Source: Elusimicrobiota bacterium
GTDB lineage: Bacteria; Elusimicrobiota; Elusimicrobia; Elusimicrobiales; UBA9959
Length of the DNA: 36,894 nt
NCBI GenBank assembly: GCA_030637365.1
Contig: DAOWGR010000023.1
Span: 1-36,894, forward strand
Reading direction: 5' to 3'
The notes under the pieces were generated by a model. The model saw nothing but the letters and a program-made list of their open reading frames with translations, did no database searches and was not told where the DNA came from. The position numbers and the translations under genes are program-made. Shown here piece after piece: positions 1,535 to 36,894 of this stretch; the stretch's first letter is position 1; the number at the start of each line of letters is the position of its first letter.

Positions 1535-2321
1535 ATATTCCGTTCGAGTCGCCTATGACGCCGATGAGATTAAGAAATGGAATGGAAGAGTCATTGTCGT
1601 GGATTTATTCCGGTTCTCAAATACCGTTTGCGCTCTTATGGCAAGCGGGAGAAAAAACATAAAAGTGTATTCAGAACCCAAATTCGCAGTTATCGCTAAA
1701 AAAAACGCTAAAAACACCGATTTGTTTTCAGAGATTGATTTTCCAGCCATTGACAGATATGACAATCCCACCACCCGCTTATCCCGCTTAAAAGCGGGAT
1801 CAAAAAAAACAAGCGGCGCCAATGGCGCCGCAAGCGGGTGGTGGGACAATTCCCCGTATCTTGCCATGAATTCCACTGACGCCTCCAAGGACGCTATTAT
1901 CGTAACCTGTTCGGGCGCGAAAACGGTTATGGCCGCGCATTGCGCCAAAGAAATAATTATAGGCTGTTTTGCCAATATGCCGCAGCTTTGCGAATACGCG
2001 AAAAAAAATAAAATGAATACTCTGATAGCGCCGGCCTGTATTTTTTATGATAGAAATCATGTGGAAGATTTTATATGTTCGCGCGCTTTACAAGACGCGT
2101 TTAATGGAAAAGATACTTTTCACGCCGCTCTTGAAGAAATACATAAAAGTTCCAGAATTCTTGATTTTATGGCTTTTAGGCCGGAAAACGGAAGAAAAGA
2201 TATTGAAATGATATTGAAGAAAGGAACAATGAAAATTTTACCGAAGGTTGTTATAAGGGGAGTTTTTGCCGAGGTTTTTGATGTTTTAGGCTGTGAAGCG
2301 GGGGCGCGAAATGAAGTTTAA
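1500..2321 (+). CDS. 2-phosphosulfolactate phosphatase (ComB) family-like protein carrying a 28-codon palindromic-element insert
   Basis: VIVVDLFRFSNTV, D-NSP (split by the insert), VTCSGAKTV and VEDFICSRAL resemble the ComB/2-ph_phosp family layout. Overlaps the preceding ORF by 35 nt and queC by 11 nt. Confidence 0.6.
   Translation: MLPKITQNQKNKYSVRVAYDADEIKKWNGRVIVVDLFRFSNTVCALMASGRKNIKVYSEPKFAVIAKKNAKNTDLFSEIDFPAIDRYDNPTTRLSRLKAGSKKTSGANGAASGWWDNSPYLAMNSTDASKDAIIVTCSGAKTVMAAHCAKEIIIGCFANMPQLCEYAKKNKMNTLIAPACIFYDRNHVEDFICSRALQDAFNGKDTFHAALEEIHKSSRILDFMAFRPENGRKDIEMILKKGTMKILPKVVIRGVFAEVFDVLGCEAGARNEV
1766..1846 (+). repeat. 81-nt palindromic element (copy A), translated in frame within the ComB-like gene
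   Basis: Perfect 15-bp terminal inverted repeat, TCCCACCACCCGCTT (1766-1780) and AAGCGGGTGGTGGGA (1832-1846). Internal hairpins ATCCCGCTT/AAGCGGGAT (1781-1800) and GCGGCGCC-AAT-GGCGCCGC (1813-1831). A8 run at 1802-1809. Direct ACAAT at 1762-1766 and 1846-1850. Confidence 0.85.
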
Positions 2322-4172: not shown

Positions 4173-4231
4173 ATTGTTTTTATGCCTTCCTTTCCCTTAC
4201 GGGGATTAGAATTTGTATATAGAATATCAGT

Positions 4232-6133: not shown

Positions 6134-6150
6134 AAAGAACTTAACAGATT

Positions 6151-8094: not shown

Positions 8095-8175
8095 GAGTCC
8101 GTTTAAACAGTTTTTATTACCGTGTATGCTTTTTTTCTCCATATAATAACCGGAAGACACATTTGGAGTATTAAT

Positions 8176-10059: not shown

Positions 10060-10114
10060 GAGGCGCGGAAGTTCGAAAGCGCGAAATACCGGATAGAAAC
10101 GGAATTATATAAAT

Positions 10115-15501: not shown

Positions 15502-15526
15502 TTCCTTTAAAAACGGAACTATTTCC
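15494..15526 (+). promoter_or_regulatory. Stop-codon-spanning hairpin after yejA copy 1 (no T-run)
   Basis: GGAAATAGTTCC (15494-15505) and GGAACTATTTCC (15515-15526) form a perfect 12-bp stem with a 9-nt loop. The stem includes the TAG stop. Confidence 0.5.
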
Positions 15527-15759
15527 AAGTCACCAGTCACCATGTCTCCAGAATTTGGTAATTAGTAAATGGAAGTTTCGTTAATTAACATCTGTCCTTT
15601 GTTTCTGTTTTTTTGTTCCGTATCGCTGCCACGCTGTAGCTCTGCCGCGCTGTTTCTGTCTCTTTGTAATAAGTTTCTATATTTGATAGTTTATTAACAG
15701 TATTGGGAATTACCAAAAATTTGAGTTCTTATTTTTTTAAAACGAGGTGAAAAACGCGT

Positions 15760-17541
15760 ATGAAAAATATTGTTTTAGCAGGAATTTTTTTACTGTTTGG
15801 GGCATTTGGTTCAAACGCTTTGGCGGATGTTTTTAATCCCGCCGGATGGGACAGCAATAATGATTTTCCTCTGATAGGTTCGCCAAAAGCCCAGAAGGGC
15901 GGCGAGCTTCGTTATTACTGGCAAAGTTTTCCTCCCACATTAAGAACTGAGGGGCCAAATTCAAATTTTGTGCCCAATAATGAGGTTCAAAGTTTGATGT
16001 ATGAATCATTGGTAGGTCTTCATCCCACAACATTGGAATATATTCCGGGACTTGCAAATTACTGGAAGATATCCGCTGACAAAAGAAAGTTTTCATTTCA
16101 TGTAAATCCAAAAGCCGCATGGGCTGACGGCAGCCCCGTTACCGCCGAGGATGTGGTCGCCACTTGGGAATTTCGTATTCGCGAAGATATAAAAGATCCG
16201 TATTCGGTTATGATGTGGGGCGGAAGTTTTGAAAAGCCCGTTGCTGAAAGCAAATATGTGGTTTCGGTAAAGACAAAAGAACTTAATTGGCGTTTATTTT
16301 TATATTTCGGCGGTATGGCGATATATCCGGCTAAAGAAATGAAAGTTCTTACAGGAGAGAAATATCTTAAGGATTATAACTGGAAAATGCAAATGGGTTC
16401 GGGGCCTTATGAAGTAAAACCTGAAAATATTACAAAGGAACATTCTCTGGTTGTTACAAGGCGCGAGGATTATTGGGCCGTCAATGAGCGAAGAAATATC
16501 GGCATTAATAATTTTGATAAAATATCATGGAAAGTTATTTTAGATGAAGAATTGGCTTTTGAGAAATTTAAAAAAGGCGAGATTGATTATTATTATGTCA
16601 ATAAATCACAGAGATGGATTGAGGAATGCGATTTTGACAAAATAAAAAAAGGCTGGGTTCAAAAGAGAAAAATTTATACACAAGCGCCGAAAGGTTTTGG
16701 CGGTTTTGTTTTTAATATGAGAAAGCCGCCTTTTAACAATCGCAATGTCAGAAAGGCCTTTTCTTTTCTTTTTAACCGCGAAAGACTTATAGATAAGCTT
16801 TTTTTTAATGAATATGATTATATAGACAGCTATTATCCCGGTGGAGATTGGGGTAATTCCGATAATCCGAAAATTCGTTATAATCCGCGCCGAGCCGCAA
16901 GGCTTCTTAAAAGAGCCGGTTGGACAAATAGAAACAAAGACGGCTGGCTTGTCAATAAAGACGGAGAAATTTTTGAATTGACTCTTGAATATGGTCAGCA
17001 AGGGTCTACCAGAATTCATAAGGTTATCAAAGAGGAGATAGAAAAAGCGGGAATTAAATTTAATCTTAAATTGATTGATTCCAGAACTTTAATGAAAAAA
17101 GTCAGTGAACGCAAGTTTACTATTCATTTTCAAAGTTGGAGAGCTACATTGTTTCCAAATCCGAAGAGTTCGTGGAATTCAGAGCTTGCCGGAGCGCACA
17201 CAAATAATCTTCCGGGTTTTAAGAATAAAGGAGTGGATGAATTGTGTAAAAAATATAATGTTACATTTGACAGGGCGGAGCAGAAAAAGATTATAGGGGA
17301 AATAGACGGCATAATTTTTAGAGTTCATCCGTATGCTCTTGGATGGTATGGTAATAATAGTCGTGTTCTTTATGAGAATAAATTCGGACATCCTAAAGAG
17401 TATTTTTCAAAAATTGGCGATTACAATGATATAAAAACTTTTTGGTGGTATGATAGGGCAAAAGAAAAAGCTTTATCTGAAGCTATAAAGAGTAATAAAA
17501 GTTTGCCTATCGGAAAAACCATCCAAAAACCGTGGAAATAA
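15760..17541 (+). CDS. yejA: ABC transporter substrate-binding protein, family 5, YejA-like, copy 2
   Basis: Signal peptide IVLAGIFLLFGAFGSNALA. Collinear with copy 1 and highly similar throughout the mature domain. Confidence 0.9.
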   Translation: MKNIVLAGIFLLFGAFGSNALADVFNPAGWDSNNDFPLIGSPKAQKGGELRYYWQSFPPTLRTEGPNSNFVPNNEVQSLMYESLVGLHPTTLEYIPGLANYWKISADKRKFSFHVNPKAAWADGSPVTAEDVVATWEFRIREDIKDPYSVMMWGGSFEKPVAESKYVVSVKTKELNWRLFLYFGGMAIYPAKEMKVLTGEKYLKDYNWKMQMGSGPYEVKPENITKEHSLVVTRREDYWAVNERRNIGINNFDKISWKVILDEELAFEKFKKGEIDYYYVNKSQRWIEECDFDKIKKGWVQKRKIYTQAPKGFGGFVFNMRKPPFNNRNVRKAFSFLFNRERLIDKLFFNEYDYIDSYYPGGDWGNSDNPKIRYNPRRAARLLKRAGWTNRNKDGWLVNKDGEIFELTLEYGQQGSTRIHKVIKEEIEKAGIKFNLKLIDSRTLMKKVSERKFTIHFQSWRATLFPNPKSSWNSELAGAHTNNLPGFKNKGVDELCKKYNVTFDRAEQKKIIGEIDGIIFRVHPYALGWYGNNSRVLYENKFGHPKEYFSKIGDYNDIKTFWWYDRAKEKALSEAIKSNKSLPIGKTIQKPWK

Positions 17542-22386: not shown

Positions 22387-22473
22387 AGAGTATAAAGGTC
22401 TAAGAGTCGCAGAGTCTGAGGGTCTTGGGATTAAAACAGGGCAGCTAAAAAAAATCCTTTAATCCTTTCCGGT

Positions 22474-23121
22474 CTATTTCTGAATTTTAAATATATTTTT
22501 TATGTATTGCCAATGCCAATGGATGTGAAACAGAGATATCATAAACATCGCTATGCCCGCTTCCGTATGCCATAGCATGATATTAAAAGGCAGTTTAATC
22601 CTTATGCCGTAATTTATCATTATAACCAGCAGAATTCCGAGCAAGCCGGATATTAAAAATGTGAGCAATAGGGCAAAATTCCAAAATTTAAAGTGGGTTT
22701 TGGCTTCTATGATTTTTTTCTTATACAGGATAATGCCGATAAGGTACAAAAGAAGCAAAAACGCGCTTATGGGAAAAAGATGATATGGCTTTTTGCCGGA
22801 GGTTTTTTTAATGGCGGCTTTTTTTGTAGTTTTAACGGTTTTTTTGGGGGCAATCGGCGGTTTTATGTTTTGCGATGTTTGAGCCGGGATGTTCTTTTTC
22901 CGCTTGTTGTTTTCTGATATCTGTTTTCTGCTTTCCACTTTGTTAACAATATCTTTTATCTGAGGGTTTGATTGAATATAATCGCATATTCCGTCATTAT
23001 CCTTATCCACGCACATGCCGCATGGCGCGTCGCATTCAGTCAGCCCTTTAGGGCAGGCGCTTTCCCCGAATACCGTTAAAGGCAATGAGCATAATATCAT
23101 GGCGAATGCTATTTTTTTCAT
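22474..23121 (-). CDS. Hypothetical Cys-rich membrane protein (signal peptide, CxxxxxxC..PCGMC..DGICD module, Lys-rich linker, three His-containing TM helices)
   Basis: MKKIAFAMILCSLPLTVFG signal peptide. The C-terminal TM block with WHTEAGIAMFMISLFHIHWHW is reminiscent of DUF4405/cytochrome-b-like membrane domains, but I am not certain of this. Confidence 0.6.
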   Translation of the reverse strand: MKKIAFAMILCSLPLTVFGESACPKGLTECDAPCGMCVDKDNDGICDYIQSNPQIKDIVNKVESRKQISENNKRKKNIPAQTSQNIKPPIAPKKTVKTTKKAAIKKTSGKKPYHLFPISAFLLLLYLIGIILYKKKIIEAKTHFKFWNFALLLTFLISGLLGILLVIMINYGIRIKLPFNIMLWHTEAGIAMFMISLFHIHWHWQYIKNIFKIQK

Positions 23122-23183
23122 ATTGTTTCTTAAAGCCTAAATAGAGTTTACAAATTTTAGATTGATTCGTGAAAATAGTCGGA

Positions 23184-24686
23184 CTAAGAATTAAGGAGTG
23201 TTTTTTTGCGTTCCGTCCAAAGGGTGAAATTGAAAGTGGAGCCTTCGTTTAGCGCGCTTTCCGCCCATAGTCGGCCTTTGTGTCGTTCTATTATGCGTTG
23301 GACCGTACTCAGACCTATGCCGGTTCCGGGAAATTCAGACAGAATGTGAAGGCGTTGAAAGGGTTTGAATATCTTGTTTACATATTTCATGTCAAAGCCG
23401 CAACCATTGTCTTTTACGAAATAAATATTTTGGTGTTCTTTTTTCATCATTCCGAATTCTATCGCGGGTTTTTCGGTTTTTTTCGTGAATTTCCACGCAT
23501 TTTCCAGCAGATTCTCAAGAGATTCCATCAGAAGACCGGGATCTCCGGTTGTTTCAATGCCTTCCGCCACAATAATATTTACATGCCGCGCGGGTTCGCT
23601 TTCTTGCAGGCGTTCAATGATTTTCTTTGCCAGAGCCGTCATATCCACGGTCTTGCAGTCCATTTCCTGGCGTATGATACTGGAGAGTTTGAGCAAATTG
23701 TCTATAATTTCCGCCATATGTTGGCAGTTGTTCTGCACTTTTCCGATATATGCTCTGCCGGTATCGTCCAAGACATTTGAATATTCCTGTTCCAGAAAGG
23801 TGATAAAGCCATCCATGCGTCTTAACGGGCCGCGTAAATCGTGCGACGCGGAATAGGTAAAAGCTTCCAATTCTTTATTCGCCATTTTTAATTCGGCCGT
23901 TCTCTCCGTTACATTGTCTTCCAGGTCATTGCGGGCTTTGATAAGTTCACTTGTTGCCGTGTCGCGTTCACGGCTCCTTTCCCGAAGATTTTTAAGCATG
24001 TAATTAAAGCTTTCGGCCAGTATTCCGATTTCATCGCCGCGGTTTATATCGGTTTTTAAAGAATAGTCTTGATTATGGGCGATACTTCTGGTTAATTCGG
24101 CCAATTGCAGTATGGGCCGCGATATCAGCCTTTGGACGCGCGTGGTCAGGATGAAGACAATTATGGCCACGCAAAATGCCAATATGATGATTAGTTTTAC
24201 GCGGTCCCAAATTTTTTCCGCCAAGAGCGCGGTGGAAACGCACATATGAAGTGTGCCGTAATATTTACCTTTATAAGTCATCGGTTCATAAACAGCAAGG
24301 TGCCCTTTTGTGAAGAGAGTATAAGTTTCTTCCCGCGCAATTGGTGTTTTCAGTTTTTTTCGCTCGAACTTTTTTCCATCGCGAGCGTAGGCGGCAAAAA
24401 TATTTCCGCGAATGTCGTAAATTGCCGCATGCTCTATGTTTTTTATAAGAGAAAGTTTTTCAAGCGCTTGCGAGGCTTCATCTTCGTATTCGAAAACCAG
24501 ATCTCCAATACAGTATTCCGCCGTTATTTTGGCGTTTAGAATGGAATCTTCTATCAATTCTTTTCGGAAATTACGGGTATCAAGCGCCGTTATTACGGCA
24601 AAACCGAGCACTAACGCGAAGAAAGCCACCGCCATTATGAGAGATGTTAGTTTGGCGTTTACCGACAAATTTTCAAGAGATTTCAT
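23184..24686 (-). CDS. Sensor histidine kinase (2 TM + periplasmic loop, HAMP, HisKA, HATPase_c)
   Basis: HAMP region RPILQLAELTRSIA...GDEIGILAESFNYMLKNL, H-box FTYSASHDLRGPLRRM, N/G boxes NLLENAWKF, DNGCGFD and GTGIGLS. The start overlaps the upstream stop (ATGA). Confidence 0.9.
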   Translation of the reverse strand: MKSLENLSVNAKLTSLIMAVAFFALVLGFAVITALDTRNFRKELIEDSILNAKITAEYCIGDLVFEYEDEASQALEKLSLIKNIEHAAIYDIRGNIFAAYARDGKKFERKKLKTPIAREETYTLFTKGHLAVYEPMTYKGKYYGTLHMCVSTALLAEKIWDRVKLIIILAFCVAIIVFILTTRVQRLISRPILQLAELTRSIAHNQDYSLKTDINRGDEIGILAESFNYMLKNLRERSRERDTATSELIKARNDLEDNVTERTAELKMANKELEAFTYSASHDLRGPLRRMDGFITFLEQEYSNVLDDTGRAYIGKVQNNCQHMAEIIDNLLKLSSIIRQEMDCKTVDMTALAKKIIERLQESEPARHVNIIVAEGIETTGDPGLLMESLENLLENAWKFTKKTEKPAIEFGMMKKEHQNIYFVKDNGCGFDMKYVNKIFKPFQRLHILSEFPGTGIGLSTVQRIIERHKGRLWAESALNEGSTFNFTLWTERKKTLLNS

Positions 24687-25327
24687 TTTGTGTCACCGCC
24701 GTACACCATTGTCGCCAAGCGTAAAAGTTTTGAATTGATGACAAGGCCGCTTTTGCGGGCGCCGCCGAGATTTATATTGAAACGGATATGTTTACTTTTT
24801 TTGTAAAGAGCGATATGCGTCCCGCGCCGAGCCAGTTTTTTACCGTCTCCCACGATAAGTATCGGCCTATTGCCGGTTATGGAAAGTATGTCAGCCAGCC
24901 GCTTGTTTTCGTTTTTTGCTATAAAAAGCATATGACAGTGTTCAAGAGTGTCTTCGTTTTTCATTTGGCGCAATATTACACGGCGATTTTTTATTTTCCT
25001 GGTCTTTGCCAGTTTTTTGAGATAAGGACCGATTAAGGTTTTTCCAATCAGAGTTATGATAAAAGGTTCGTTTGGATCTGAAAAAGTTTTTTCGGGCCAG
25101 TCAATAAATTGGGTTATTCTTACCAGAAATTCGGCTTTTACCTGGTATTCAAAAAATTTATGCGACGAGGCGGTTGCCAAATCTCGGTTTGAGCCGGCGA
25201 TTAGCCCGAACAATATAAGAAAAGTCGTTAGGATTATTCGCCCGATTGACGGTTTGTTTGGAATGGTTGTTTTTGCTGAAAGATTTTGAAACAAAATGGA
25301 TTTTAGTCGGCTAAGCAAGTTTGTCAT
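24683..25327 (-). CDS. YfiR-like periplasmic protein (DUF4154)
   Basis: EYQVKAEFLVRITQFIDWP...HCHMLFIAKNE...ILIVGD...IRFNINLGGARKSGLVINSKLLRLA follows the DUF4154 pattern end to end. Confidence 0.8.
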   Translation of the reverse strand: MTNLLSRLKSILFQNLSAKTTIPNKPSIGRIILTTFLILFGLIAGSNRDLATASSHKFFEYQVKAEFLVRITQFIDWPEKTFSDPNEPFIITLIGKTLIGPYLKKLAKTRKIKNRRVILRQMKNEDTLEHCHMLFIAKNENKRLADILSITGNRPILIVGDGKKLARRGTHIALYKKSKHIRFNINLGGARKSGLVINSKLLRLATMVYGGDTK

Positions 25328-25379
25328 AGTCTTTTTTTAATAGTTCCTCATGGTCCGGGATAGAATGAAAATATGAAAT

Positions 25380-27611
25380 TTAAAATTTAAGCGTTAAGCC
25401 TCCGTATATGCTGATCGGGTCCTGAGGAGACGCTCCAAAACCTTCGTCCGGAGCTCTTGTGGGATTGGAGTAACGGGCATTTGTCAGATTTTGTATGTTT
25501 AAAAATATTGAAAGCTCCTTGTCTCCAATCGGTATATCATTGTATTTGGCATAAAAATTCATAATGGCGAAAGGGTCGCTGCTTTGCTTTGTTCCGCTGA
25601 TGAGGTTTCTGTTATAACTGCGCGATTGATATATAAAACGAGGAGAAATGCTCCATCTGCCAAATGTCGCGTCCACTCCCGCTCGGGCGGAGTCTTTCGC
25701 GCTGTAGGAAAGAAATGTGGCCCCTTCCGAATAACCCTCGGAATATGTATAAGCCGCGTAAATCACCATGTCAATTTTGCCGAGGTTTGTGATGGCGTCC
25801 ATGCGCAGTGTTCCGCCGTAAATTCTGCCGATATCGTCAGTGTTTACAAAGGTTTGAATATAAGAGACCGGAACACCCTTGAAAGATGTTATGGTTTTAT
25901 CCCTTTTTGTTCTAATCATGTCATAAACATAAGAGTTATAACCATTGAAGCTTAACCAGAATGTATCGGTGAATTTATAACTTGCTTCCAATTGAAATGA
26001 ACGGATTTTTTCCGGTTTTAAATCCGTATTGGGAAGATAAAAATAAGAGCTTCTAAGGCCCGTAACGGTGTTTGTGTCCGCGTAAAAAGAGCCGTAATGC
26101 TGATAGGTTTTATCGGGAGAAGGAGCAAGGAAGGCTTCTCCGTAAAGCAATTTGAAGTTAGTTTTTTTATGCGGTTTAAATACAAGGCCTGCTCTGGGAT
26201 TGAGGTAGTCTCCGTAACGGCTATTACGGTCATAACGGATTCCGAGTGTGGCTTGGACGGCGGAATACTCTTTAAAATTAAATTGCGCGTAGGCTCCGGT
26301 ATTGCTGTATTCATTAAAATAGAAATCCTGTGAAATTCCCAGATAAGTTCCCGAACTGTCGTATATATCGGAGCCCGGATAGACGAAACCTTGAGAATCC
26401 GCGCTTAAATCTCTATTGTAAGCGCTTGAAAGGTCGGCGGTGCGCGGCAGAACCAGGTGATCTTGATAAGACAGGCCGAAAAGAAAGAGGCTTTCTTCGC
26501 CTATTTTACAGTTTGCTTTTTCTTCAATTACGGAGCTTTTATCCCTAGCGTATTTATACGCGTCATCATAGTTTGAATAAATATTAATAAATTTGGTTTC
26601 GGGATCCAATTCATAGAAATGAGACGATAATGATGTGTTAAATGTCCACTTTTCGTTTTCGGAGCGATAAATATGGTTGCCGGAAAGAGTTTCATAATTT
26701 GTTTTGACAATCGCGTCTTCGGCATATAAAGAGTATTCCGGCTTCATTCCAAGCGAGGAAGAATGAGATTCCGACATTTTTACCCAGCCCAATTCAAAAT
26801 TGTTCATGCTTAGCCGGACATGAGTAAAAAAAGCGTTTTCATCGGCATTAAAGTCGCGGAACGGAACAGTGGTTTCTCCTGTAAAAGTTTTCATTCTTCC
26901 TGTTTGGTATTCTGAATTGTACCATGAAAAATCGCTTGAATGATATTTTGGCATGGAAGGTCCGTCCGAATGATAACTGTCGGCGGTTACGGAAAAAAAC
27001 GCATTTTCCAGAAATCTAATTTTGCCGCCCGCGACAGCGGAATAGTTTTGCGTATTGTAATTTCCATAGGAGCCGGAAAGATTTTGATTTTCCAAGTCTT
27101 CACCGCTTTTAGTGACGATATTTATTACTCCCGTGAAAGCGTCCGCTCCGTATAATGCCGACATCGGTCCCAGCACTATTTCCACTCTTTTGGCGTTTTT
27201 GAGGGAAAATTGTCTTCCCAGAGTGTAAAAATTCCCCGTAACGGGAGTGACTTGCATGCCGTCAATGAAAATTTGAATTCGTTCATTGCCGTTTATGCCT
27301 TGTACTGTCAAAATATTGCCGGTATCCGTTCCGGCCAAGTGCGCTATTTCTATTTGAGGCATATCCTCAAGAAGGTCAAGCAAAGTGGAGTAGCCTCGGG
27401 CTTTGATGGTTTCTTCGGTTATAACATGGGCCAATGCGCCAGACTCCGATGGTTTCTCGTCCGTAAAAGAAGACGCTTTTATCGGAACATTCAGCAGAGC
27501 TTCCAGCGTTAGTCCTTCAAGTTCCGAGGCAAAAGCTGAGGTGCGGCCAAATGGAGCGAGAGTTTCGGTGGCCGCGATTATCGCTATAAGAAAAAATTTT
27601 ATCGGTTTCAT
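25380..27611 (-). CDS. TonB-dependent outer-membrane receptor
   Basis: Signal peptide. Plug domain ITEETIKARGYSTLLDLLEDMPQIEI...VEIVLGPMSALYGADAFTGVINIVTK. A long beta-rich barrel ends in the terminal aromatic residue ...GGLTLKF. Confidence 0.9.
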   Translation of the reverse strand: MKPIKFFLIAIIAATETLAPFGRTSAFASELEGLTLEALLNVPIKASSFTDEKPSESGALAHVITEETIKARGYSTLLDLLEDMPQIEIAHLAGTDTGNILTVQGINGNERIQIFIDGMQVTPVTGNFYTLGRQFSLKNAKRVEIVLGPMSALYGADAFTGVINIVTKSGEDLENQNLSGSYGNYNTQNYSAVAGGKIRFLENAFFSVTADSYHSDGPSMPKYHSSDFSWYNSEYQTGRMKTFTGETTVPFRDFNADENAFFTHVRLSMNNFELGWVKMSESHSSSLGMKPEYSLYAEDAIVKTNYETLSGNHIYRSENEKWTFNTSLSSHFYELDPETKFINIYSNYDDAYKYARDKSSVIEEKANCKIGEESLFLFGLSYQDHLVLPRTADLSSAYNRDLSADSQGFVYPGSDIYDSSGTYLGISQDFYFNEYSNTGAYAQFNFKEYSAVQATLGIRYDRNSRYGDYLNPRAGLVFKPHKKTNFKLLYGEAFLAPSPDKTYQHYGSFYADTNTVTGLRSSYFYLPNTDLKPEKIRSFQLEASYKFTDTFWLSFNGYNSYVYDMIRTKRDKTITSFKGVPVSYIQTFVNTDDIGRIYGGTLRMDAITNLGKIDMVIYAAYTYSEGYSEGATFLSYSAKDSARAGVDATFGRWSISPRFIYQSRSYNRNLISGTKQSSDPFAIMNFYAKYNDIPIGDKELSIFLNIQNLTNARYSNPTRAPDEGFGASPQDPISIYGGLTLKF

Positions 27612-27739
27612 AAAATCTCCTGTTAAAAACAGATGGCGCTATTGCCTGTGTTTTCGTTTACGGATTTCATTCGCTTTTATCCGTCTGTGGTCTCGTCCGC
27701 GTTGTGAAGCCGCGGAAGGACAAATAGACCGGGCGAATT

Positions 27740-28195
27740 TTATTTATACGCGTTTTTAGGCATCATTTTGACAATTAAAAACCAGAAATTTTCCATCGTT
27801 CTCATTACATTTTCAAAATCCTCCATTTTGACCGGCTTGGAGATAAAACAGTTCGCGTGATGATTATAGGTTTTTATGACATCTTCATCGGCTTTGGAAG
27901 AGGTCAGTATTATGACGGGAATAGTTCTTAATTCAGGGTCTTCTTTTATTTCCGTGAGCACTTCATGGCCGTCTTTTTTTGGGAGGTTTAAATCCAGAAG
28001 AATAATGTCCGGCCTGGGAGAATTCATATATTCCCCTTCTTTGCGCAGATATGCCATGGCCTCCACTCCGTCCGCGGCCACACTGATATTATTTTTTACT
28101 TTAGCCTTTTTGAATACCTGCAGGATAAAAAATGTGTCATCATCATTATCCTCCACCAGAAGTATTTCAATAGGTTCATGGTTGATTTTATCCAT
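27740..28195 (-). CDS. Stand-alone CheY-like response-regulator receiver
   Basis: EILLVEDNDDDTFF, DIILLDLNLPKKDG, PVIILTSS and CFISKP. ATG at 28195 is preceded by GGGGG. The ORF-track start at 28222 is an upstream extension. Confidence 0.9.
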   Translation of the reverse strand: MDKINHEPIEILLVEDNDDDTFFILQVFKKAKVKNNISVAADGVEAMAYLRKEGEYMNSPRPDIILLDLNLPKKDGHEVLTEIKEDPELRTIPVIILTSSKADEDVIKTYNHHANCFISKPVKMEDFENVMRTMENFWFLIVKMMPKNAYK

Positions 28196-28302
28196 GGTGC
28201 CCCCAAATTTTAAATTTATCATCCGGCGTTATTTTCAGCGCCAAACGATTGTTGCGTCGCGATTAAAACAATAATTTCCCTCACACATATTTTACTTCAA
28301 AT

Positions 28303-28473
28303 TTAATAAAAAAAACAGTGCCGGCGCGAGCGCGTTAAATTTTTACGATTATTCTCATCAATAAAACCGCCGCATGGCGAATAACATTCAATTATCCCTT
28401 TAGGGCAGTCGATTTCACCGAATACCGTTAAGGGCAATGAGCATAATGCCAGGGCGAATATAATTTTTTTTAC
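28303..28473 (-). pseudogene. Truncated paralogue of the 5' end of the Cys-rich membrane protein gene (22474-23121); start codon apparently lost
   Basis: Minus-strand translation is VKKIIFALALCSLPLTVFGEIDCPKGIIECYSPCGGFIDENN...*, compared with MKKIAFAMILCSLPLTVFGESACPKGLTECDAPCGMCVDKDN in the full gene. GTA occupies the ATG position. Nucleotide similarity also extends about 35 nt upstream. Confidence 0.6.
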
Positions 28474-28525
28474 AAGGTTAACTCCGGATAAAGTTTACAG
28501 ATTACAGGTTAAATTTTGGCGCGTA

Positions 28526-29305
28526 TTATATGGAAGAAGTTTCTATCGCGATATCAATTAATTTTTTTAATTTTTGTTTGACATGTTTTGAATCAAACTG
28601 CGGGTCCCATTTGTCTTCCCCCAAAATATCCGAAACCACCAGGCAAGAAGCCATTTTCACTTTTCTGAATTCCGCGACCGCGAAAAGCGCTGATGTTTCC
28701 ATGTCCACCGTTTTGATGCCTTCTTGCTTATAGTGTTTGATTTCGGAGATTGTTTCTCTATAAGGAGCGTCAATGGTCCAAGTCGCGCCCATTTCAAAAT
28801 CAATATTGTTTTTCTCCAATGATTTTTTAAACATTGAGGTTAATTTTTTGCTTGGATAGCTGTATTTTCCATGAGGCAAATAGTGATAGCTGACGCCTTC
28901 GTCTCGCAGAGCTTTTTCACAAAGAAATATGCCGAAATTTTTCAAGCCTCCGCAGGAACCAATGTTTAAAAATTGGTTTCCTCCCAATGAAATCAGTTCT
29001 TCAAGCACAGTGGTGGCGTTTGGCGCGCCAATGCCGGTCATTTGAACCAAAGCGATATCTTTATGCCGGTAAATTGTGATTAGTCTGTGCATTTTGATTA
29101 TTTTGGGTGAGTATTTTTTTTCAAAATAATTCAGCAAATAAGGATAATATATGAGAATATATTTGGATGGCTTGTTTTTTGTTTCTTCTTTCGCGTATTT
29201 GCTCCAGCTAATGGAATCTGATGGAGAAAATAAAGCTTTTTCAAAATATTTGTTTTTAAAATTGGGATAGCCCATAATAATATCGGAAATTGATTGGCGC
29301 GCCAA
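28526..29305 (-). CDS. Nucleoside phosphorylase family protein (PNP_UDP_1; uridine/purine nucleoside phosphorylase-like)
   Basis: GIGAPNATTVLEELISLGGNQFLNIGSCGGL and VDMETSALFAVAEF are family signatures. The start is either TTG at 29305 or ATG at 29275. Confidence 0.7.
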   Translation of the reverse strand: MARQSISDIIMGYPNFKNKYFEKALFSPSDSISWSKYAKEETKNKPSKYILIYYPYLLNYFEKKYSPKIIKMHRLITIYRHKDIALVQMTGIGAPNATTVLEELISLGGNQFLNIGSCGGLKNFGIFLCEKALRDEGVSYHYLPHGKYSYPSKKLTSMFKKSLEKNNIDFEMGATWTIDAPYRETISEIKHYKQEGIKTVDMETSALFAVAEFRKVKMASCLVVSDILGEDKWDPQFDSKHVKQKLKKLIDIAIETSSI

Positions 29306-29333: not shown

Positions 29334-29352
29334 ACGGAAGGGGAGGGATTCG
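29334..29352 (-). repeat. 19-nt duplicate of the tRNA-Ser 3' end (att-like scar)
   Basis: ACGGAAGGGGAGGGATTCG at 29334-29352 is identical to 29503-29521, which covers the T-loop/T-stem 3' half, the acceptor 3' strand, the discriminator and one further nt of the tRNA. Confidence 0.8.
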
Positions 29353-29503
29353 CCTACTGCATTCACAGAGTTCACTGCGTAGGCTCCCCTTCGCTCACTG
29401 GCAGCATAGCTTTTTCCTCGCAACGCTCGGCGTTCGCTACGCTTCGAATCCCTACGCAAGTCAAATTGTTGACTTGCTCTTTTCGCAAGTTGGAAATATC
29501 AAA

Positions 29504-29591
29504 CGGAAGGGGAGGGATTCGAACCCTCGAAAGCCATTAAGACTTTACCGGTTTTCAAGACCGGCTCCTTAAACCGCTCGGACACCCTTCC
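29504..29591 (-). tRNA. tRNA-Ser (anticodon UGA), class II with long variable arm
   Basis: Minus strand reads GGAAGGG-TG-TCC-GAGCGGTTTAA-GGA-G-CCGGT-CTTGAAA-ACCGG-TAAAGTCTTAATGGCTTTC-GAGGG-TTCGAAT-CCCTC-CCCTTCC-G. The 7-bp acceptor, 3-bp D stem, 5-bp anticodon stem, 6-bp variable stem, T-arm and G73 all fold. CCA is not encoded. Confidence 0.95.
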
Positions 29592-29636
29592 AGAAGCATA
29601 ATTATACAAAATTTGAAAAATATAGCTTATAATGAG

Positions 29637-29775
29637 AGGAGGCTTTTTTATTTAATGTATAATCATTATATTAAGGGAAATAAACCGCTTATTTGAGTTC
29701 ACGGAGGAGCGTTGTTAAATGCTCCGGAAAACACTCTTGTCGCTTCTACAAAGGCTTTTGAAAATGGAACCGATA
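29637..29775 (+). pseudogene. Degenerate duplicate of the glpQ promoter plus first 35 or so codons
   Basis: Aligns base by base with 30537-30673 (TTAATGTATAATC identical; roughly three quarters identity overall by eye). The ATG position is mutated, there is one extra nt, and a TGA stop follows KGNKPLI. Confidence 0.7.
29658..29663 (+). promoter_or_regulatory. Candidate -10 box (TATAAT) in the duplicated glpQ leader, now upstream of the receiver gene
   Basis: Consensus TATAAT preceded by TG. An identical box lies at 30556-30561. No good -35 box was seen. Confidence 0.3.
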
Positions 29776-29790
29776 TGGAGGAAAAAAATT

Positions 29791-30432
29791 ATGTCTAAAA
29801 AAAACATGAAAATTCTTATTGTGGAGGACAATCCCGACGATCTTTTTCTGCTCATAAAAGAGCTGAAAAAGTCGCGCTTATCCGACATAAAACCGGAAAC
29901 GGCCGATACCGTGAAAGCGGCCCTTGAAATTTTAAAAAAGAAGCGATTTGATTGTATTCTTTCCGACCTTTCCCTTCCCGATACCCATGACGGAGTAGAT
30001 ACTTTTACGCGGATTAACGGGGCCGCCCCGCAAATCCCCATAATATTGCTGACGGCGTTTGACAGCGAAACGCTCGCGCTGAAACTCGTTAAGAAAGGGG
30101 CTCAAGATTACATTGTCAAGGGAAAGTTCACTCCCGAACTGTTGGCGCGTTCGATTTTTTACGCCATAGAACGCAAAGCTTTGAACGACAGGCAGGAGGA
30201 TTTGATCGCGCGGCTCAAGAAGGCGCTTAAAGAAATAAAGACGCTGTCGGGCTTGTTGCCCATATGCGCGAGCTGTAAAAAGATAAGGGACGACAAAGGG
30301 TATTGGCACATGGTGGAGACTTATATATCCTCCCACGCGAATGTTGAATTCACGCATGCCATTTGCCCCGACTGCATGGAAGAGCTTTATCCTGAATTTC
30401 TGGATAAAAAAGATAAAAAACCGAAAAAATAA
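29791..30432 (+). CDS. Response-regulator receiver fused to a C-terminal CxxC...CxxC module
   Basis: ATG at 29791 lies 9 nt after GGAGG. MKILIVEDNPDDL, CILSDLSLPD, IILLTAF and YIVKG. C-terminus LLPICASCKKIRDDKGYWHMVETYISSHANVEFTHAICPDCMEE. The ORF-track start at 29719 lies within the glpQ pseudo-fragment. Confidence 0.9.
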   Translation: MSKKNMKILIVEDNPDDLFLLIKELKKSRLSDIKPETADTVKAALEILKKKRFDCILSDLSLPDTHDGVDTFTRINGAAPQIPIILLTAFDSETLALKLVKKGAQDYIVKGKFTPELLARSIFYAIERKALNDRQEDLIARLKKALKEIKTLSGLLPICASCKKIRDDKGYWHMVETYISSHANVEFTHAICPDCMEELYPEFLDKKDKKPKK

Positions 30433-30555
30433 ATAGCCGATTAAAGAGTTTTTGCCAATCGGCTGATGCTTTAATAGCGAGGCGTTAACCTTCAATTTCC
30501 ATCCCCTTGCGCGTTAAGCGTTGCTTATTTCGGCCTGAGGGGCTTTAAGTTAATG

Positions 30556-30561
30556 TATAAT
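30556..30561 (+). promoter_or_regulatory. Candidate -10 box (TATAAT) 8 nt upstream of the glpQ ATG
   Basis: TATAAT ends at 30561 and the ATG is at 30570, with no Shine-Dalgarno between them. This would imply a leaderless or near-leaderless glpQ mRNA. Confidence 0.3.
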
Positions 30562-30569
30562 CTTTTACT

Positions 30570-31331
30570 ATGGGGAATAAACCTTTAATTTTGGCTCACA
30601 GAGGAGCGCTGCTAAATGCGCCCGAAAATACGCTTAAGGCGTTTATGAGGGCTTTTGAAAATGAAGCCGATGGCATTGAATGCGATATCAGAATTACCAA
30701 AGACGGCGAGTTTATAGCTTTTCATGATGAAACCACCGAACGCGTTGCGGGCGTAAATTGGCAGATAAAGAAAACAAAATACGCTCAATTAAGAAACATT
30801 GAAGTTTTTGGCAAAGAACCCATAGCTCATTTGGACGATATTTTAAAACTTCTTTTAAAATGGCCGGATAAATTATGTTTTTTTGAAGTGTGCTTTGATG
30901 ACTCCGATGATGTTGAACGCCTGACTCAAAAAGTAAAAGAGGCCGGTCTCGCGAAGCGTTCCTATATTTTGACTTTTTCAAACAGAAAACATTTATTAAA
31001 AAGAGCTAAAGAAGCCGCGCCTGAAATGGGCATATCGGTTATGCCGCTATTGCCGACAAAAATTATTCAGACCGCTCGCAAAGCCGGCGCTAATTCCGTT
31101 TGCGCGGGCTGGGTTGATTTGCCGGGAGCGAAACAATTGTTTACAATGTCGGCAAAACTTTATAATTTTAAAAAACAAATCAGAGACGCGAAGAAACTTG
31201 ATATTTTTGTAAGCGGCGGAGTGGCCAATACCCATAAAGAAATTGAATGGTTTTGCGAGCAAGGCATTGAAGGCGTATGGACTGATGATGTCTTGCTGGC
31301 TTTGGAAGTGATACGAGGCTCTGAGAAATAA
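30570..31331 (+). CDS. glpQ: Glycerophosphodiester phosphodiesterase
   Basis: ILAHRGALLNAPENTLKAF, ADGIECDIRITKDGEFIAFHDETTER (the HRG / E-D / HD GDPD motifs). Confidence 0.85.
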   Translation: MGNKPLILAHRGALLNAPENTLKAFMRAFENEADGIECDIRITKDGEFIAFHDETTERVAGVNWQIKKTKYAQLRNIEVFGKEPIAHLDDILKLLLKWPDKLCFFEVCFDDSDDVERLTQKVKEAGLAKRSYILTFSNRKHLLKRAKEAAPEMGISVMPLLPTKIIQTARKAGANSVCAGWVDLPGAKQLFTMSAKLYNFKKQIRDAKKLDIFVSGGVANTHKEIEWFCEQGIEGVWTDDVLLALEVIRGSEK

Positions 31332-31363: not shown

Positions 31364-32056
31364 ATGGTTAAATATTCGGCTTGTATTGCGGTGGCGCTGG
31401 CGATAGTATATGGAATAATACTTTCATATCCGGGAATGTTTTTTAAGTATAGTTATGAGTATAAAAACATGACCGTTTACAGCCATGAAACCCTAAAAGG
31501 CGATATTGACGGTGTTTGGGATGCCGTTCATGAGAAGATGGTTTTATCCGAATTTTTTAATCCCGATTTTAAATTTTGTTTTTATATTGTAAAAGGTTTA
31601 AAGGAATACTCTTTTTTAACCGCCTTTAAAGGAAAAAATTATTCTTATCTCTGTCCGTTAAGCGGCAAGATTTTTTTGGTTTCGGCCGATTTTGAAAAAA
31701 ACGAAGCAAATTGTAAAAATTGCGATGAAAAAAGCGTCAGGGATTTGGATATTATCATGGCGAGCGCGGCAATGAAGAGTATTCTCCGGCAAAATTCCGA
31801 ATTTTTAAAATATATATTCATTAGTGAATGGAAAAAAGAAGGCTATGGGGAGTATATCGCGGGTGAAAGCGGATATTTTGAATTTTCGGAAATATGCGGA
31901 AACGAAACGGATAATCTGTGGCTGGAATTTTATAAGCGCCATCTTGCCATGAAAATGCTGATGATTGAGGATAAATATTCATTTGCCGCCGTTCTTGAAA
32001 AAAATGTCAGTTATGAAGGCATGCTAAAGCGTCTTAAAGAAAGGCATTGCAGATAG
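31364..32056 (+). CDS. Hypothetical membrane-anchored protein (one N-terminal TM), paralogue starts at 36796
   Basis: N-terminal TM ACIAVALAIVYGIILSYPGMFF. ATG is preceded by GGGGGAAG. No family recognised. Confidence 0.6.
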   Translation: MVKYSACIAVALAIVYGIILSYPGMFFKYSYEYKNMTVYSHETLKGDIDGVWDAVHEKMVLSEFFNPDFKFCFYIVKGLKEYSFLTAFKGKNYSYLCPLSGKIFLVSADFEKNEANCKNCDEKSVRDLDIIMASAAMKSILRQNSEFLKYIFISEWKKEGYGEYIAGESGYFEFSEICGNETDNLWLEFYKRHLAMKMLMIEDKYSFAAVLEKNVSYEGMLKRLKERHCR

Positions 32057-36795: not shown

Positions 36796-36894
36796 TTGAA
36801 AATTTTGGATTGTATTATGATGGCGCCGGCGATAGTATATGGAATAATGCGTTCATATACGGGAATGTTTTTTAAGAATAGTTATGAGTATAAA
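36796..36894 (+). CDS. Paralogue of 31364-32056, 3' end cut by window edge (start TTG 36796 or ATG 36817)
   Basis: ...DCIMMAPAIVYGIMRSYTGMFFKNSYEYK compares with ...ACIAVALAIVYGIILSYPGMFFKYSYEYK. Nucleotide similarity is high over the last 85 or so nt of the window. Confidence 0.6.
   Translation, partial: MKILDCIMMAPAIVYGIMRSYTGMFFKNSYEYK

What the first reader, a model, noticed from the sequence alone, without database searches (positions are those of the whole stretch)
28303..28505. About 140-bp duplicate of the upstream region and first 35 codons of the Cys-rich membrane protein gene brackets the whole signalling cluster
- 28370-28505 aligns with 23018-23156. Both are on the minus strand and similarity is high by eye, for example CCCTTTAGGGCAG..CGAATACCGTTAA.GGCAATGAGCATAAT.
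- The aligned block covers about 35 nt upstream of the start plus the signal peptide and the first Cys motif.
- The distal copy has lost its ATG (GTA) and terminates after 56 codons.
- On the minus strand the order is: truncated 5' copy, receiver, TonB receptor, YfiR-like, kinase, intact gene.
- The same geometry, with a similar duplicate length, is seen at glpQ (29637-29775 and 30537-30673). There too, a receiver gene is the first gene after the truncated copy.
- A duplicated homology block flanking an insert is what a Campbell-type single crossover produces when circular DNA carries about 140 bp of target sequence. This points to a recurrent insertion or promoter-capture mechanism rather than random decay.
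Basis: partly seen in the sequence, partly recalled or inferred. Interest (0 to 1): 0.6.

Follow-up and report, generated by a model that had tools for sequence, protein, structure and literature searches.

The report
Displaced gene start beside inserted cluster
The short "duplicate" is the old front end of a membrane-protein gene, pushed aside by a 5.35-kb block that carries four signalling genes and its own replacement front end for that gene. Sister strains in other seafloor samples lack exactly this block, so this is an ordinary gain/loss polymorphism made by recombination.

Summary
28348-28516 repeats 22996-23166 (77-83% identity, E 5e-24), and glpQ has a similar pair (E 3e-20).

The decisive evidence comes from public cold-seep and marine-sediment metagenomes:
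- Strains about 2% divergent (runs X5, X6, X7) join window 22995 directly to 28348. They lack exactly 5,352 bp.
- In those strains the "fragment" is the in-frame 5' end of one intact Cys-rich gene next to the phosphorylase gene, with a GTG start.
- The window's intact copy differs from that allele by about 23% up to nt 132 and by 1.4% just after it.

So the two copies are the junction repeats of a homology-guided insertion/deletion. The segment carries a replacement promoter and N-terminus. The displaced start is now decaying (GTG>GTA, promoter motif mutated), whereas in X6 it is still intact.

A more distant relative (L008/L052) has a full-length Cys-rich gene in front of the same spacer and cluster. 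That arrangement is the likely source of the second copy.

The glpQ pair is older. L050 keeps relic pieces up to residue 239 of 253, and sister strains have a relic 41 nt shorter. The shared "140 bp" length is therefore coincidental erosion.

The Campbell-type geometry and the predicted empty site are confirmed. A 140-bp circle, a recurrent dedicated mechanism and the gain-versus-loss direction are not shown. No recombinase lies in the segment.

The parts
28348..28525 (-). Displaced 5' end (x') of the resident Cys-rich gene. It comprises a 52-nt upstream spacer with the promoter-like motif (TCTGTAAACT here, TTTGTAAACT in all relatives), the dead start GTA at 28473-28471, the signal peptide and the first Cys motif (42 codons).
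   Evidence: It is 97-99% identical to the 5' end of the uninterrupted gene in runs X5/X6/X7, where the start is GTG.
22996..28347 (-). The 5,352-bp insertion/deletion segment that is absent from sister strains. On the minus strand it holds the receiver-upstream spacer, four signalling genes, then a second promoter and the first 42 codons of a Cys-rich gene.
   Evidence: Joint 22995|28348 ('skips 5352', 5 nt fit both sides) in contigs of X5, X6 and X7. Depth over the cluster in X5 is 0.
28223..28347 (-). Spacer upstream of the receiver gene. It is homologous to the distal part of the spacer that follows a full-length Cys-rich gene in L008 (L008 868-1030).
   Evidence: It is also conserved in L011/L053.
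27740..28222 (-). Receiver-only response regulator. The likely start is at 28198.
   Evidence: Pfam Response_reg, E 8e-21. Orthologues in L008, L011 and L053 are 79-80% identical at amino-acid level.
25380..27611 (-). TonB-dependent receptor.
   Evidence: Pfam Plug + TonB_dep_Rec_b-barrel. Orthologues are 83-85% identical at amino-acid level.
24683..25327 (-). YfiR/HmsC-like periplasmic protein (DUF4154).
   Evidence: Pfam, E 8e-38.
23184..24686 (-). Sensor histidine kinase (CHASE8-HAMP-HisKA-HATPase_c).
   Evidence: Orthologues P0144 and P0145 are 74-76% identical.
22996..23183 (-). Incoming replacement 5' end: a 62-nt native-type upstream region (TTTGTAAACT motif), the ATG at 23121 and 42 codons. 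It is about 23% divergent from the resident 5' end.
   Evidence: The upstream region is homologous to L008 -58..-1. It shows about 30 differences in 131 nt to the uninterrupted allele, against 2 in 138 nt just downstream.
22474..23121 (-). Intact Cys-rich membrane-protein gene (215 aa). It is a chimera of the incoming 5' end (nt 1-~130) and the resident body.
22387..22473 (.). Native spacer between the Cys-rich gene and the convergent ABC ATPase gene. This is the ancestral junction.
   Evidence: Homologous to the same spacer in L003, L009 and L013 (Smith-Waterman z 9-11).
28526..29305 (-). PNP_UDP_1 phosphorylase gene, the left flank of the polymorphic site.
   Evidence: Flank contigs of the cluster-less strain are 97-99.7% identical.
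29503..29592 (-). tRNA-Ser(UGA). In L002 it is the native upstream neighbour of glpQ.
29633..29775 (+). glpQ' relic: native upstream region with the TGTATAAT motif plus codons 1-35 (AAG for ATG, TGA at codon 8). It is contiguous with the tRNA, as intact glpQ is in L002.
   Evidence: The relic is longer in L050 and 41 nt shorter in X1-minor/X5/X7.
29791..30432 (+). RR213 response-regulator gene. It lies between the glpQ relic and glpQ and has only 16 nt (with GGAGG) of upstream sequence of its own.
30537..31331 (+). Intact glpQ (GDPD family), with 33 nt of upstream sequence shared with the relic.

Best explanation
What it is:
- The fragment is the displaced 5' end of the resident Cys-rich membrane-protein gene: promoter-like motif, start codon, signal peptide and first Cys motif.
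- In the window's strain a 5,352-bp segment sits in register after codon 42 of that gene.
- The segment consists of a spacer, four signalling genes (receiver, TonB-dependent receptor, YfiR-like protein, CHASE8 kinase) and, at its far end, a second and about 23%-divergent promoter plus first 42 codons of a Cys-rich gene.
- The gene therefore stays intact but is read from the incoming 5' end. The old 5' end is stranded next to the phosphorylase gene.

What the repeats are:
- The two roughly 180-bp copies are the left and right junction repeats of a homology-guided reciprocal recombination. One partner is the resident gene. The other is a Cys-rich gene copy linked to the cluster.
- Such a module (full-length Cys-rich gene - spacer - cluster) exists in the related L008/L052 lineage.
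- The state is polymorphic. Strains about 2% divergent carry the single uninterrupted gene.

What happens afterwards: the stranded end decays. In the window GTG became GTA and TTTGTAAACT became TCTGTAAACT. In run X6 both are still intact.

Shown:
- both alleles and the exact joint;
- the mosaic of the intact copy;
- the full-length gene at the same position in a relative;
- the allelic series of decay.

Inferred:
- Recombination was guided by homology, either as a Campbell-type single crossover or as one homologous end plus one illegitimate joint.
- Direction: I lean about 55:45 to recent gain over recent loss.

The glpQ pair has the same geometry but a separate and older history. A (near) full-length glpQ duplicate upstream of RR213 has been eroded by deletions. 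This fits duplication of [RR, tRNA-Ser, glpQ] followed by loss of one copy of each. Its surviving 5' part probably supplies the promoter for RR213.
For: 1. Empty-site allele.
- Contigs in X5 (630 nt, depth 3.0), X7 and X6 (depth 4.0) join 22995 to 28348. X5 has zero depth over 23705-28200.
- Flanks differ by 30 of 1,372 nt, or 2.2%.
- That allele reads GTG...FIDENN|DGICDYIQSN in frame.

2. Not an assembly chimera.
- The longest identical run between the repeats is 15 nt, shorter than the 31-mers used.
- The contig differs from the window on both sides of the joint.
- The joint is seen in three runs from two studies.

3. Mosaic of the window's intact copy against the uninterrupted allele:

| Gene nt | Differences | Divergence |
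|---|---|---|
| 2-132 | ~30/131 | 23% |
| 133-270 | 2/138 | 1.4% |
| 271-378 | 21/108 | 19% |
| 379-581 | 7/203 | 3.4% |

The first switch coincides with the end of the fragment.

4. The intact copy keeps the native spacer to ABC2 (z 9-11 to L003, L009, L013). Both flanks of the site are therefore resident.

5. Source module.
- L008 carries a full-length gene, a 238-nt spacer, then receiver and TonB receptor, orthologous to the window at 79-84%.
- L052 overlaps L008 (94.8%) and shows the kinase followed directly by ABC2.
- Relative to L008 the window lacks about 560 nt.

6. The fragment evolved under constraint until recently.
- Against L007 it shows pN 0.196, pS 0.63, omega 0.17. The intact copy shows pN 0.20, pS 0.66, omega 0.15.
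- The conserved residues C23, P24, G26, C34 and D39 are retained.

7. Decay series.
- X6's cluster-bearing contig (28297-28550) has GTG and TTTG.
- The window and X1-X4 have GTA and TCTG.

8. glpQ pair.
- L050 (same sample as L008) has tRNA - relic - RR - glpQ, with relic pieces matching residues 1-21, 70-97, 111-121 and 212-239.
- The RR-glpQ spacer is homologous between the window and L050 (z 14).
- L002 and L051 show the order RR, tRNA, glpQ.
Against: - Direction is unresolved. Synonymous divergence of the cluster genes to L008/L052 (0.45-0.74) matches that of the host genes (0.40-0.59). This fits long vertical residence of the cluster and hence secondary loss in X5/X6/X7.
- No circular form or back-joint was seen. 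The runs are only contigs, though, and contigs drop rare forms.
- The repeats are 77% identical, which is poor substrate for RecA-type recombination.
- A second divergent patch (nt 271-378) is not explained by one simple crossover. It needs either a longer patchily repaired tract or a separate event.
- No relative shows the kinase directly followed by a Cys-rich gene, other than the window-type allele itself. A donor arrangement is therefore inferred, not seen.
- The fragment's N-terminus is not especially close to L008's gene (60-62% nt).
- All relatives are short metagenome contigs. L008/L052 and L008/L050 are linked only by a 115-nt overlap or by coming from the same sample.
Confidence: 0.72

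Rival explanations
1. A circular DNA carrying only about 140 bp of target homology integrates by a single crossover. This would be a recurrent, dedicated insertion or promoter-capture mechanism that acted at both the Cys-rich gene and glpQ.
For: - The exchange point of the two alleles lies at the inner edge of the short repeat, and the intact copy becomes resident-type immediately after it.
- Both loci have a receiver gene first after the short copy.
- RR213 has no upstream region of its own.
Against: - L008 has a full-length gene at the fragment's position, so the short block is a truncation product somewhere in the history.
- The glpQ relic in L050 spans to residue 239 of 253, and relic length varies between strains.
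- The two receivers are only 33% identical, and the junctions share no motif.
- Repeat divergence differs greatly between the pairs: dS 0.40 for the Cys-rich pair against 0.79 for glpQ.
- The second divergent patch at nt 271-378 lies outside any 140-bp substrate.
- No circle was seen.
Confidence: 0.15
2. Purely intragenomic history for pair 1. A tandem duplication of [Cys-rich gene + cluster] occurred within the lineage. One cluster copy was then lost and the upstream gene copy eroded. No incoming DNA is involved, and the cluster-less strains are later deletions between the repeats.
For: - The genome is rich in tandem paralogues (4217-10062, 13791-17540).
- The cluster shows no composition anomaly (GC 0.40-0.445 against 0.39-0.45 in the flanks).
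- Cluster dS to L008/L052 equals host dS.
- The model fits glpQ well.
Against: - The repeats differ by 23%, yet the fragment is 97-99% identical to the functional 5' end in strains only 2% away. Both blocks also show purifying selection against outgroups. An eroding duplicate should be neutral and should resemble its sister copy.
- The intact copy retains the native downstream spacer, which a duplicated [gene + cluster] unit would not restore.
- This history needs truncation, excision and decay all within 1-2% divergence.
Confidence: 0.2
3. A site-specific integrative element of the dusA/prfC-targeting type. [quoted passage not shown]
For: The geometry is the same as for IMEVchUSA3 in dusA and SXT in prfC: a new promoter and a divergent N-terminus of the same length (61% identity over 35 residues there, PMC8409611; 64% over 42 residues here). 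The joint is precise and in register, with a 12-nt near-identical stretch (10 of 12; 5 nt exact) at both junctions.
Against: - The 5,352-bp segment has no integrase, excisionase or transfer gene. It holds only four signalling genes.
- There is no identical core longer than 5 nt at the joints.
- The cluster occurs in other contexts without these ends (L011/L053, L052).
Confidence: 0.06
4. Chance similarity or an assembly artefact.
For: None beyond the low complexity of an AT-rich genome.
Against: - E-values are 5e-24 and 3e-20 within 37 kb.
- The repeats are in register with a reading frame.
- The arrangement is reproduced in independent assemblies of four runs and in MAG contig L001.
Confidence: 0.01

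Closest known systems
Integrative elements that target the 5' end of a gene and restore it (SXT/R391 in prfC; dusA-specific elements such as IMEVchUSA3; PMC8409611)
   Same: - The insert sits inside the first ~40 codons of the target.
- It supplies a new promoter and a divergent N-terminus of the same length.
- The native 5' end is left stranded at the other junction.
- An empty site exists in related strains.
   Different: - Those elements encode a tyrosine integrase and a directionality factor, and recombine at a short identical core.
- Here the segment has no recombinase.
- The only shared sequence is a 77%-identical gene-derived block.
- The cargo is a chromosomal-type signalling operon.
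Campbell-type single-crossover integration and its reverse (deletion between direct repeats by homologous recombination or single-strand annealing). This rests on established knowledge of bacterial recombination.
   Same: - Direct repeats of target homology flank the insert.
- The single-copy allele is the reciprocal recombinant.
- The repeats are mosaic at the exchange point.
   Different: - No circular form was observed.
- Homology is short and only 77% identical.
- One junction (fragment|spacer) looks illegitimate or deletion-derived.
Homology-facilitated illegitimate recombination (PMC3240628), as invoked for displacement of T6SS effector modules and Rhs tips that leaves orphan pieces (PMC5361080)
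   Same: - One end of the incoming DNA is anchored by a conserved gene part while the other is joined illegitimately.
- The resident part is displaced but kept as an orphan next to the new module.
   Different: - There the conserved anchor is the 5' part and the orphans are 3' tips or immunity genes. Here the anchor is the gene body and the orphan is the 5' end.
- Competence or conjugation in this Elusimicrobiota lineage is unknown.
Duplication-random loss model of gene-order change with pseudogene relics (described for mitochondrial genomes, PMC5745709)
   Same: This applies to the glpQ pair. The order RR, tRNA, glpQ in L002/L051 becomes tRNA, glpQ-relic, RR, glpQ. The relic is a decaying copy whose length differs between lineages.
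   Different: - This is a bacterial chromosome.
- No remnant of the second tRNA copy was found.
- A homologous-recombination origin cannot be excluded.

Membership tests
Campbell-type (homology-guided reciprocal) insertion/deletion | Direct repeats derived from the target flank the segment. | tested here: met
   22996-23166 and 28348-28516 lie on the same strand, 77-83% identical, E 5e-24.
Campbell-type (homology-guided reciprocal) insertion/deletion | An allele without the segment exists, and its single copy is the recombinant of the two repeats. | tested here: met
   The joint 22995|28348 is seen in X5, X6 and X7. Its 5' part equals the fragment (97-99%) and its body equals the intact copy (98.6% over nt 133-270).
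Campbell-type (homology-guided reciprocal) insertion/deletion | A circular intermediate, or a joint of the two segment ends. | tested here: inconclusive
   No back-joint appears in the contig-level data of 8 runs. Contigs drop rare forms, and raw reads were not available for these runs.
Site-specific integrative element (integrase-mediated, dusA/prfC type) | An integrase or recombinase gene inside the element. | tested here: not met
   Pfam on all ORFs of 22996-28347 finds Response_reg, Plug/TonB barrel, DUF4154 and CHASE8-HAMP-HisKA-HATPase only.
Site-specific integrative element (integrase-mediated, dusA/prfC type) | An identical short att core at both junctions. | tested here: not met
   Only 5 nt fit both sides of the joint. 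There is 10/12 identity around it.
Site-specific integrative element (integrase-mediated, dusA/prfC type) | [quoted passage not shown] | tested here: met
   The intact gene reads from the incoming ATG at 23121, with its own TTTGTAAACT motif. Its N-terminus is 64% identical to the displaced one. Expression was not tested.
Transposon / IS-mediated insertion | A transposase, terminal inverted repeats and a short target-site duplication. | tested here: not met
   No transposase domain and no inverted repeat at the segment ends in the window. In another lineage (L011/L053/L054) the cluster is flanked by inverted repeats and an IS110-family gene.
Pseudogene stump of a full-length duplicate (duplication-loss) | Relatives show a longer or complete copy at the same position. 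| tested here: met
   Pair 1: L008 has a full-length gene before the same spacer. glpQ: the L050 relic reaches residue 239 of 253.
Pseudogene stump of a full-length duplicate (duplication-loss) | The stump evolves neutrally, with an excess of non-synonymous change relative to the functional copy. | tested here: inconclusive
   - Fragment against the intact copy gives omega 0.65 with position-blind changes (12/9/10).
- Against outgroup L007 the fragment's pN (0.196) equals that of the intact copy (0.200), based on 43 codons.
- The glpQ relic shows pN 0.17-0.20, against 0.06-0.12 for glpQ.
Duplication-random loss (glpQ pair) | A remnant of the second copy of the co-duplicated tRNA lies between RR and glpQ. 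| tested here: not met
   Smith-Waterman of 30433-30545 and the L050 spacer against the tRNA region gives z about 0.

The most novel reading that the evidence does not exclude
The 5.35-kb segment is a recombinase-less, homology-targeted "5'-end-swap" cassette. On this reading a chromosomal signalling operon travels between strains attached to a divergent promoter plus the first 42 codons of its target gene. It inserts in register and re-heads the target, as dusA- or prfC-targeting elements do, but uses only host recombination. The glpQ/RR213 locus would be an older product of the same process. This would make re-heading of a gene a general route for gaining regulators together with a promoter.
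Probability: 0.15. Interest if true: 0.6.

Novelty: new member of a known kind. Interest (0 to 1): 0.4.

Why it matters
- It gives a clean natural example, in an uncultured Elusimicrobiota population from cold seeps, of how a whole signalling operon is gained or lost at one site without any mobile-element gene.
- Both alleles, the exact joint and a step-by-step decay series of the displaced gene start are visible in public data.
- It shows that short 5' gene fragments in such genomes can be junction scars of recent recombination, not only old pseudogenes.
- It also shows that the same gene can be headed by two signal peptides/N-termini that are 23% divergent in DNA within one species.
- For annotation, the 56-codon reading is not a gene in this strain.
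- The result is a useful case study, not a new principle.

Tried and rejected
1. I first concluded that the fragment was simply the stump of an old tandem paralogue. This rested on L008's full-length gene and the ~560-nt gap. The read-level data showed that the fragment is the resident gene's own 5' end in sister strains, so I revised that view.

2. I took the sequence after the kinase in L011 as a remnant of a downstream Cys-rich gene. I rejected this. It is a terminator plus a dispersed repeat that is 95-98% identical between lineages whose genes are only ~75-80% identical.

3. The 67-aa ORF upstream of the gene in L002 is not a counterpart of the fragment. It is an unrelated small membrane protein.

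4. A metagenome scan with the TonB receptor found nothing. The 776-aa protein is not on record, so I could not see beyond the window's right end.

5. Promoter and terminator consensus scans were uninformative: 23 sites found against 17 expected.

6. Rfam found only the tRNA.

7. Composition shows no foreign signature for the cluster.

8. A search for a tRNA remnant between RR213 and glpQ was negative.

9. Distant homologues of the Cys-rich gene (L014-L049) are not linked to the cluster.

10. The minor joint in X1 (22994|28355) is another species' gene (L007-like DDNGNCDY), not an empty site.

Full report
**1. The observation**

The repeat is real.
- Self-comparison of the window gives 28369-28470 ~ 23017-23118 (83% over 102 nt, E 5e-24). 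The ungapped repeat is 132 nt at 77%.
- With gaps, similarity runs from about 45 nt upstream of the start to codon 42-44.
- The distal copy reads VKKIIF...CFFY* with GTA at the start position.
- The gene order is as described. Pfam confirms a receiver, a TonB-dependent receptor, a YfiR/HmsC-like protein (DUF4154) and a CHASE8-HAMP-HisKA-HATPase kinase. A PNP_UDP_1 phosphorylase lies upstream.
- The glpQ pair is also real (77% over 129 nt, E 3e-20). Its copy has AAG for ATG and a TGA at codon 8.
- The window holds two more short duplicates and several tandem paralogue arrays.

**2. Source and relatives**

- An identical phosphorylase lies on a contig of MAG GCA_023143635.1.
- The closest genome hit for the cluster is an Elusimicrobiota MAG.
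- Runs that hold the sequence are cold-seep and marine-sediment metagenomes.
- The Cys-rich protein (here X) belongs to a small family of 22 hits.
- In moderately distant relatives (L002, L003, L009, L012, L013) one X gene is convergent with the ABC ATPase genes and no signalling cluster is nearby.
- The window's intact copy keeps that native X-ABC2 spacer (z 9-11). It therefore sits in the ancestral context.

**3. A full-length gene at the fragment's position in a relative**

- L008 has a 209-aa X gene, a 238-nt spacer, then a receiver and TonB receptor orthologous to the window's (79-84% DNA identity).
- L052 overlaps L008 (94.8% over 115 nt). It shows the kinase followed directly by ABC2, with no X gene between them.
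- Aligned to L008, the window has X homology from -45 to about +130. It then lacks about 560 nt, and homology resumes in the spacer at 28346.
- L008's X is not followed by the native spacer.
- L008's X is more diverged from the window's intact copy (dS 0.95) than seven neighbouring genes are (dS 0.40-0.74).
- So a module "X - spacer - cluster" exists in this clade. Its X is a different copy from the resident one.

**4. The decisive evidence: two alleles in nature**

- Laying public contigs on the window showed the window-type arrangement in runs X1-X4.
- Runs X5 and X7 carry a joint from 22995 straight to 28348 ("skips 5352", 5 nt shared). X5 has no depth over the cluster, and its flanks are 2.2% divergent.
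- Run X6, from a third study, holds both forms at similar depth.
- In the uninterrupted allele (X*) the window's "fragment" is the 5' end of an intact gene. Position 28471 is C, giving a GTG start. The upstream motif is TTTGTAAACT as in all orthologues. The frame continues ...FIDENN|DGICDYIQSN.
- The contig cannot be a repeat-induced chimera. The two repeats share no identical run longer than 15 nt, and the contig differs from the window on both sides of the joint.

**5. Mosaic structure**

X* compared with the window's intact copy:

| Gene nt | Differences | Divergence |
|---|---|---|
| 2-132 | ~30/131 | 23% |
| 133-270 | 2/138 | 1.4% |
| 271-378 | 21/108 | 19% |
| 379-581 | 7/203 | 3.4% |

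- The substitutions in nt 271-378 are real, for example ISAFLLLLYL against ISVSLFLLYL.
- The intact gene is therefore a chimera. Its first ~130 nt and 62-nt upstream region are foreign to the resident allele, and its body is resident.
- The switch coincides with the end of the stranded fragment.
- This is the geometry of a reciprocal recombination between the resident gene and a cluster-linked copy. [quoted passage not shown]
- Here, however, the 5,352-bp segment has no recombinase, and only 5 nt are identical at the joints.

**6. Decay after displacement**

- X6's cluster-bearing contig (28297-28550) still has GTG and TTTGTAAACT.
- The window and X1-X4 have GTA and TCTGTAAACT. X3 and X4 carry one further SNP.
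- Against the outgroup L007 the fragment shows the same constraint as the intact copy (pN 0.196 against 0.200; omega 0.17 against 0.15). Fragment against intact copy gives pS 0.31, pN 0.22.
- Both N-terminal blocks thus have long functional histories, and the stranded state is young.

**7. Direction and mechanism (inferred)**

Gain and loss are mirror images and give the same two alleles.

Arguments for recent gain:
- The fragment's long history of constraint.
- The fresh-to-decayed allelic series.
- Fewer recent steps are needed.

Arguments for loss:
- The cluster genes are as diverged from L008/L052 as the host genes are.
- The cluster's composition is native.

I lean 55:45 to gain.

How the joints formed:
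- The right joint is in register and must be homology-guided.
- The left joint (codon 42 | spacer position +75 relative to L008) is either an illegitimate joint made in the same event or a later ~560-nt deletion in a full-length hybrid copy.
- The first option corresponds to homology-facilitated illegitimate recombination (PMC3240628; an analogous displacement model is in PMC5361080).
- The second divergent patch hints at a longer, patchily repaired tract or at an independent exchange.

**8. The glpQ pair**

- In L002 the tRNA-Ser(UGA) is followed directly by glpQ, and the RR213 gene lies on the other side of the tRNA.
- In L051 an RR213-family gene follows a paralogous TonB-DUF4154-kinase-receiver cluster and abuts the tRNA.
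- The window and L050 share tRNA - glpQ relic - RR213 - glpQ. Their RR-glpQ spacers are homologous (z 14).
- L050's relic contains collinear pieces matching glpQ residues 1-21, 70-97, 111-121 and 212-239, with stops and frameshifts.
- The window keeps only residues 2-34. A sister strain (X1-minor, X5, X7) has lost 41 nt more.
- The window's relic is as far from its own glpQ (dS 0.79) as glpQ is from its orthologues.
- L050's two copies are 94% identical over 82 nt. Either conversion between the copies or unequal decay has occurred.
- This is an old, (near) full-length duplicate in erosion. It fits duplication of [RR, tRNA, glpQ] followed by loss of one copy of each (compare PMC5745709), although no tRNA remnant was found.
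- RR213 has only 16 nt of its own upstream sequence, so the relic's conserved TGTATAAT region probably drives it. This is inferred.
- No tRNA-glpQ empty allele was seen in eight runs.

**9. Verdict**

- The specific claims do not hold: a 140-bp substrate, one recurrent mechanism at both loci, and "not decay". The similar lengths are coincidental end points of erosion or truncation.
- The two receiver genes are only 33% identical.
- The phenomenon belongs to known kinds: homology-guided island gain/loss with junction scars, and duplication-loss relics. It is a well-documented new instance in an uncultured lineage.

Noticed in passing
window 1766-1851 and 13710-13792: An 83-86-nt palindromic element (terminal inverted repeat CCCACCACCCGCTT / AAGCGGGTGGTGGG; RNA fold -60 kcal/mol, z -10) is inserted in frame in two unrelated genes. 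These are the 273-aa ORF at 1500-2321 and the substrate-binding protein gene at 13624-15501. The element adds about 27 residues. It is absent from the L002 orthologue and from the tandem paralogue at 15760-17541. It resembles the Rickettsia palindromic elements that insert in frame into genes (PMC10969869).
   Followed up: partly
window 29341-29474; L002 1469-1601: A 134-nt conserved non-coding element lies just 3' of tRNA-Ser(UGA). An 85%-identical copy lies 3' of the other tRNA-Ser(CGA) in L002. It folds moderately well (z -3.9) and matches no Rfam family. It may mark an exchange between the two tRNA-Ser loci, or it may be an unknown small RNA.
   Followed up: partly
window 36800-36894 vs 31370-31465: This is a third 5'-end duplicate (88.5% over 96 nt), of the unknown 230-aa gene downstream of glpQ. 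It has a possible TTG start and runs off the window end. Two large unknown genes (707 and 776 aa) lie between the copies and are absent from L002. The geometry may be the same, but it cannot be judged.
   Followed up: partly
L011 61-184 / 5758-5878; L053; L054 1896-3060: In another lineage the same four-gene cluster is flanked by inverted 124-183-nt repeats, and an IS110-family transposase gene follows one of them. This suggests an IS-bounded, possibly mobile version of the cluster.
   Followed up: partly
L007 2699-3063: A 77-aa GIY-YIG ORF is inserted immediately 5' of tRNA-Ser(UGA). It is flanked by a 28-nt direct repeat that includes the tRNA's 5' end.
   Followed up: no
L051 1-3791: An RR213-family regulator directly follows a paralogous TonB receptor - DUF4154 - CHASE8 kinase - receiver cluster and abuts tRNA-Ser(UGA). 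RR213 probably belongs functionally to this type of signalling cluster.
   Followed up: no
window 22744-22851: A second sharply bounded divergent patch (21 differences in 108 nt) separates the window's Cys-rich gene from the sister-strain allele, inside otherwise 97-99% identical sequence. The gene appears to be a recombination mosaic within the species.
   Followed up: partly
window 4217-10062 and 13624-17541: There are three tandem paralogues of a ~640-aa protein with HKD-like motifs (77-80% DNA identity) and two tandem SBP_bac_5-type binding-protein genes (77%). The region is prone to tandem duplication.
   Followed up: no
L011 958-3189: The TonB-receptor gene is split into two ORFs in MAG contig L011 but is intact (743 aa) in the 99.5%-identical contig L053. 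This is probably a sequencing or assembly error, or a very recent pseudogene.
   Followed up: no
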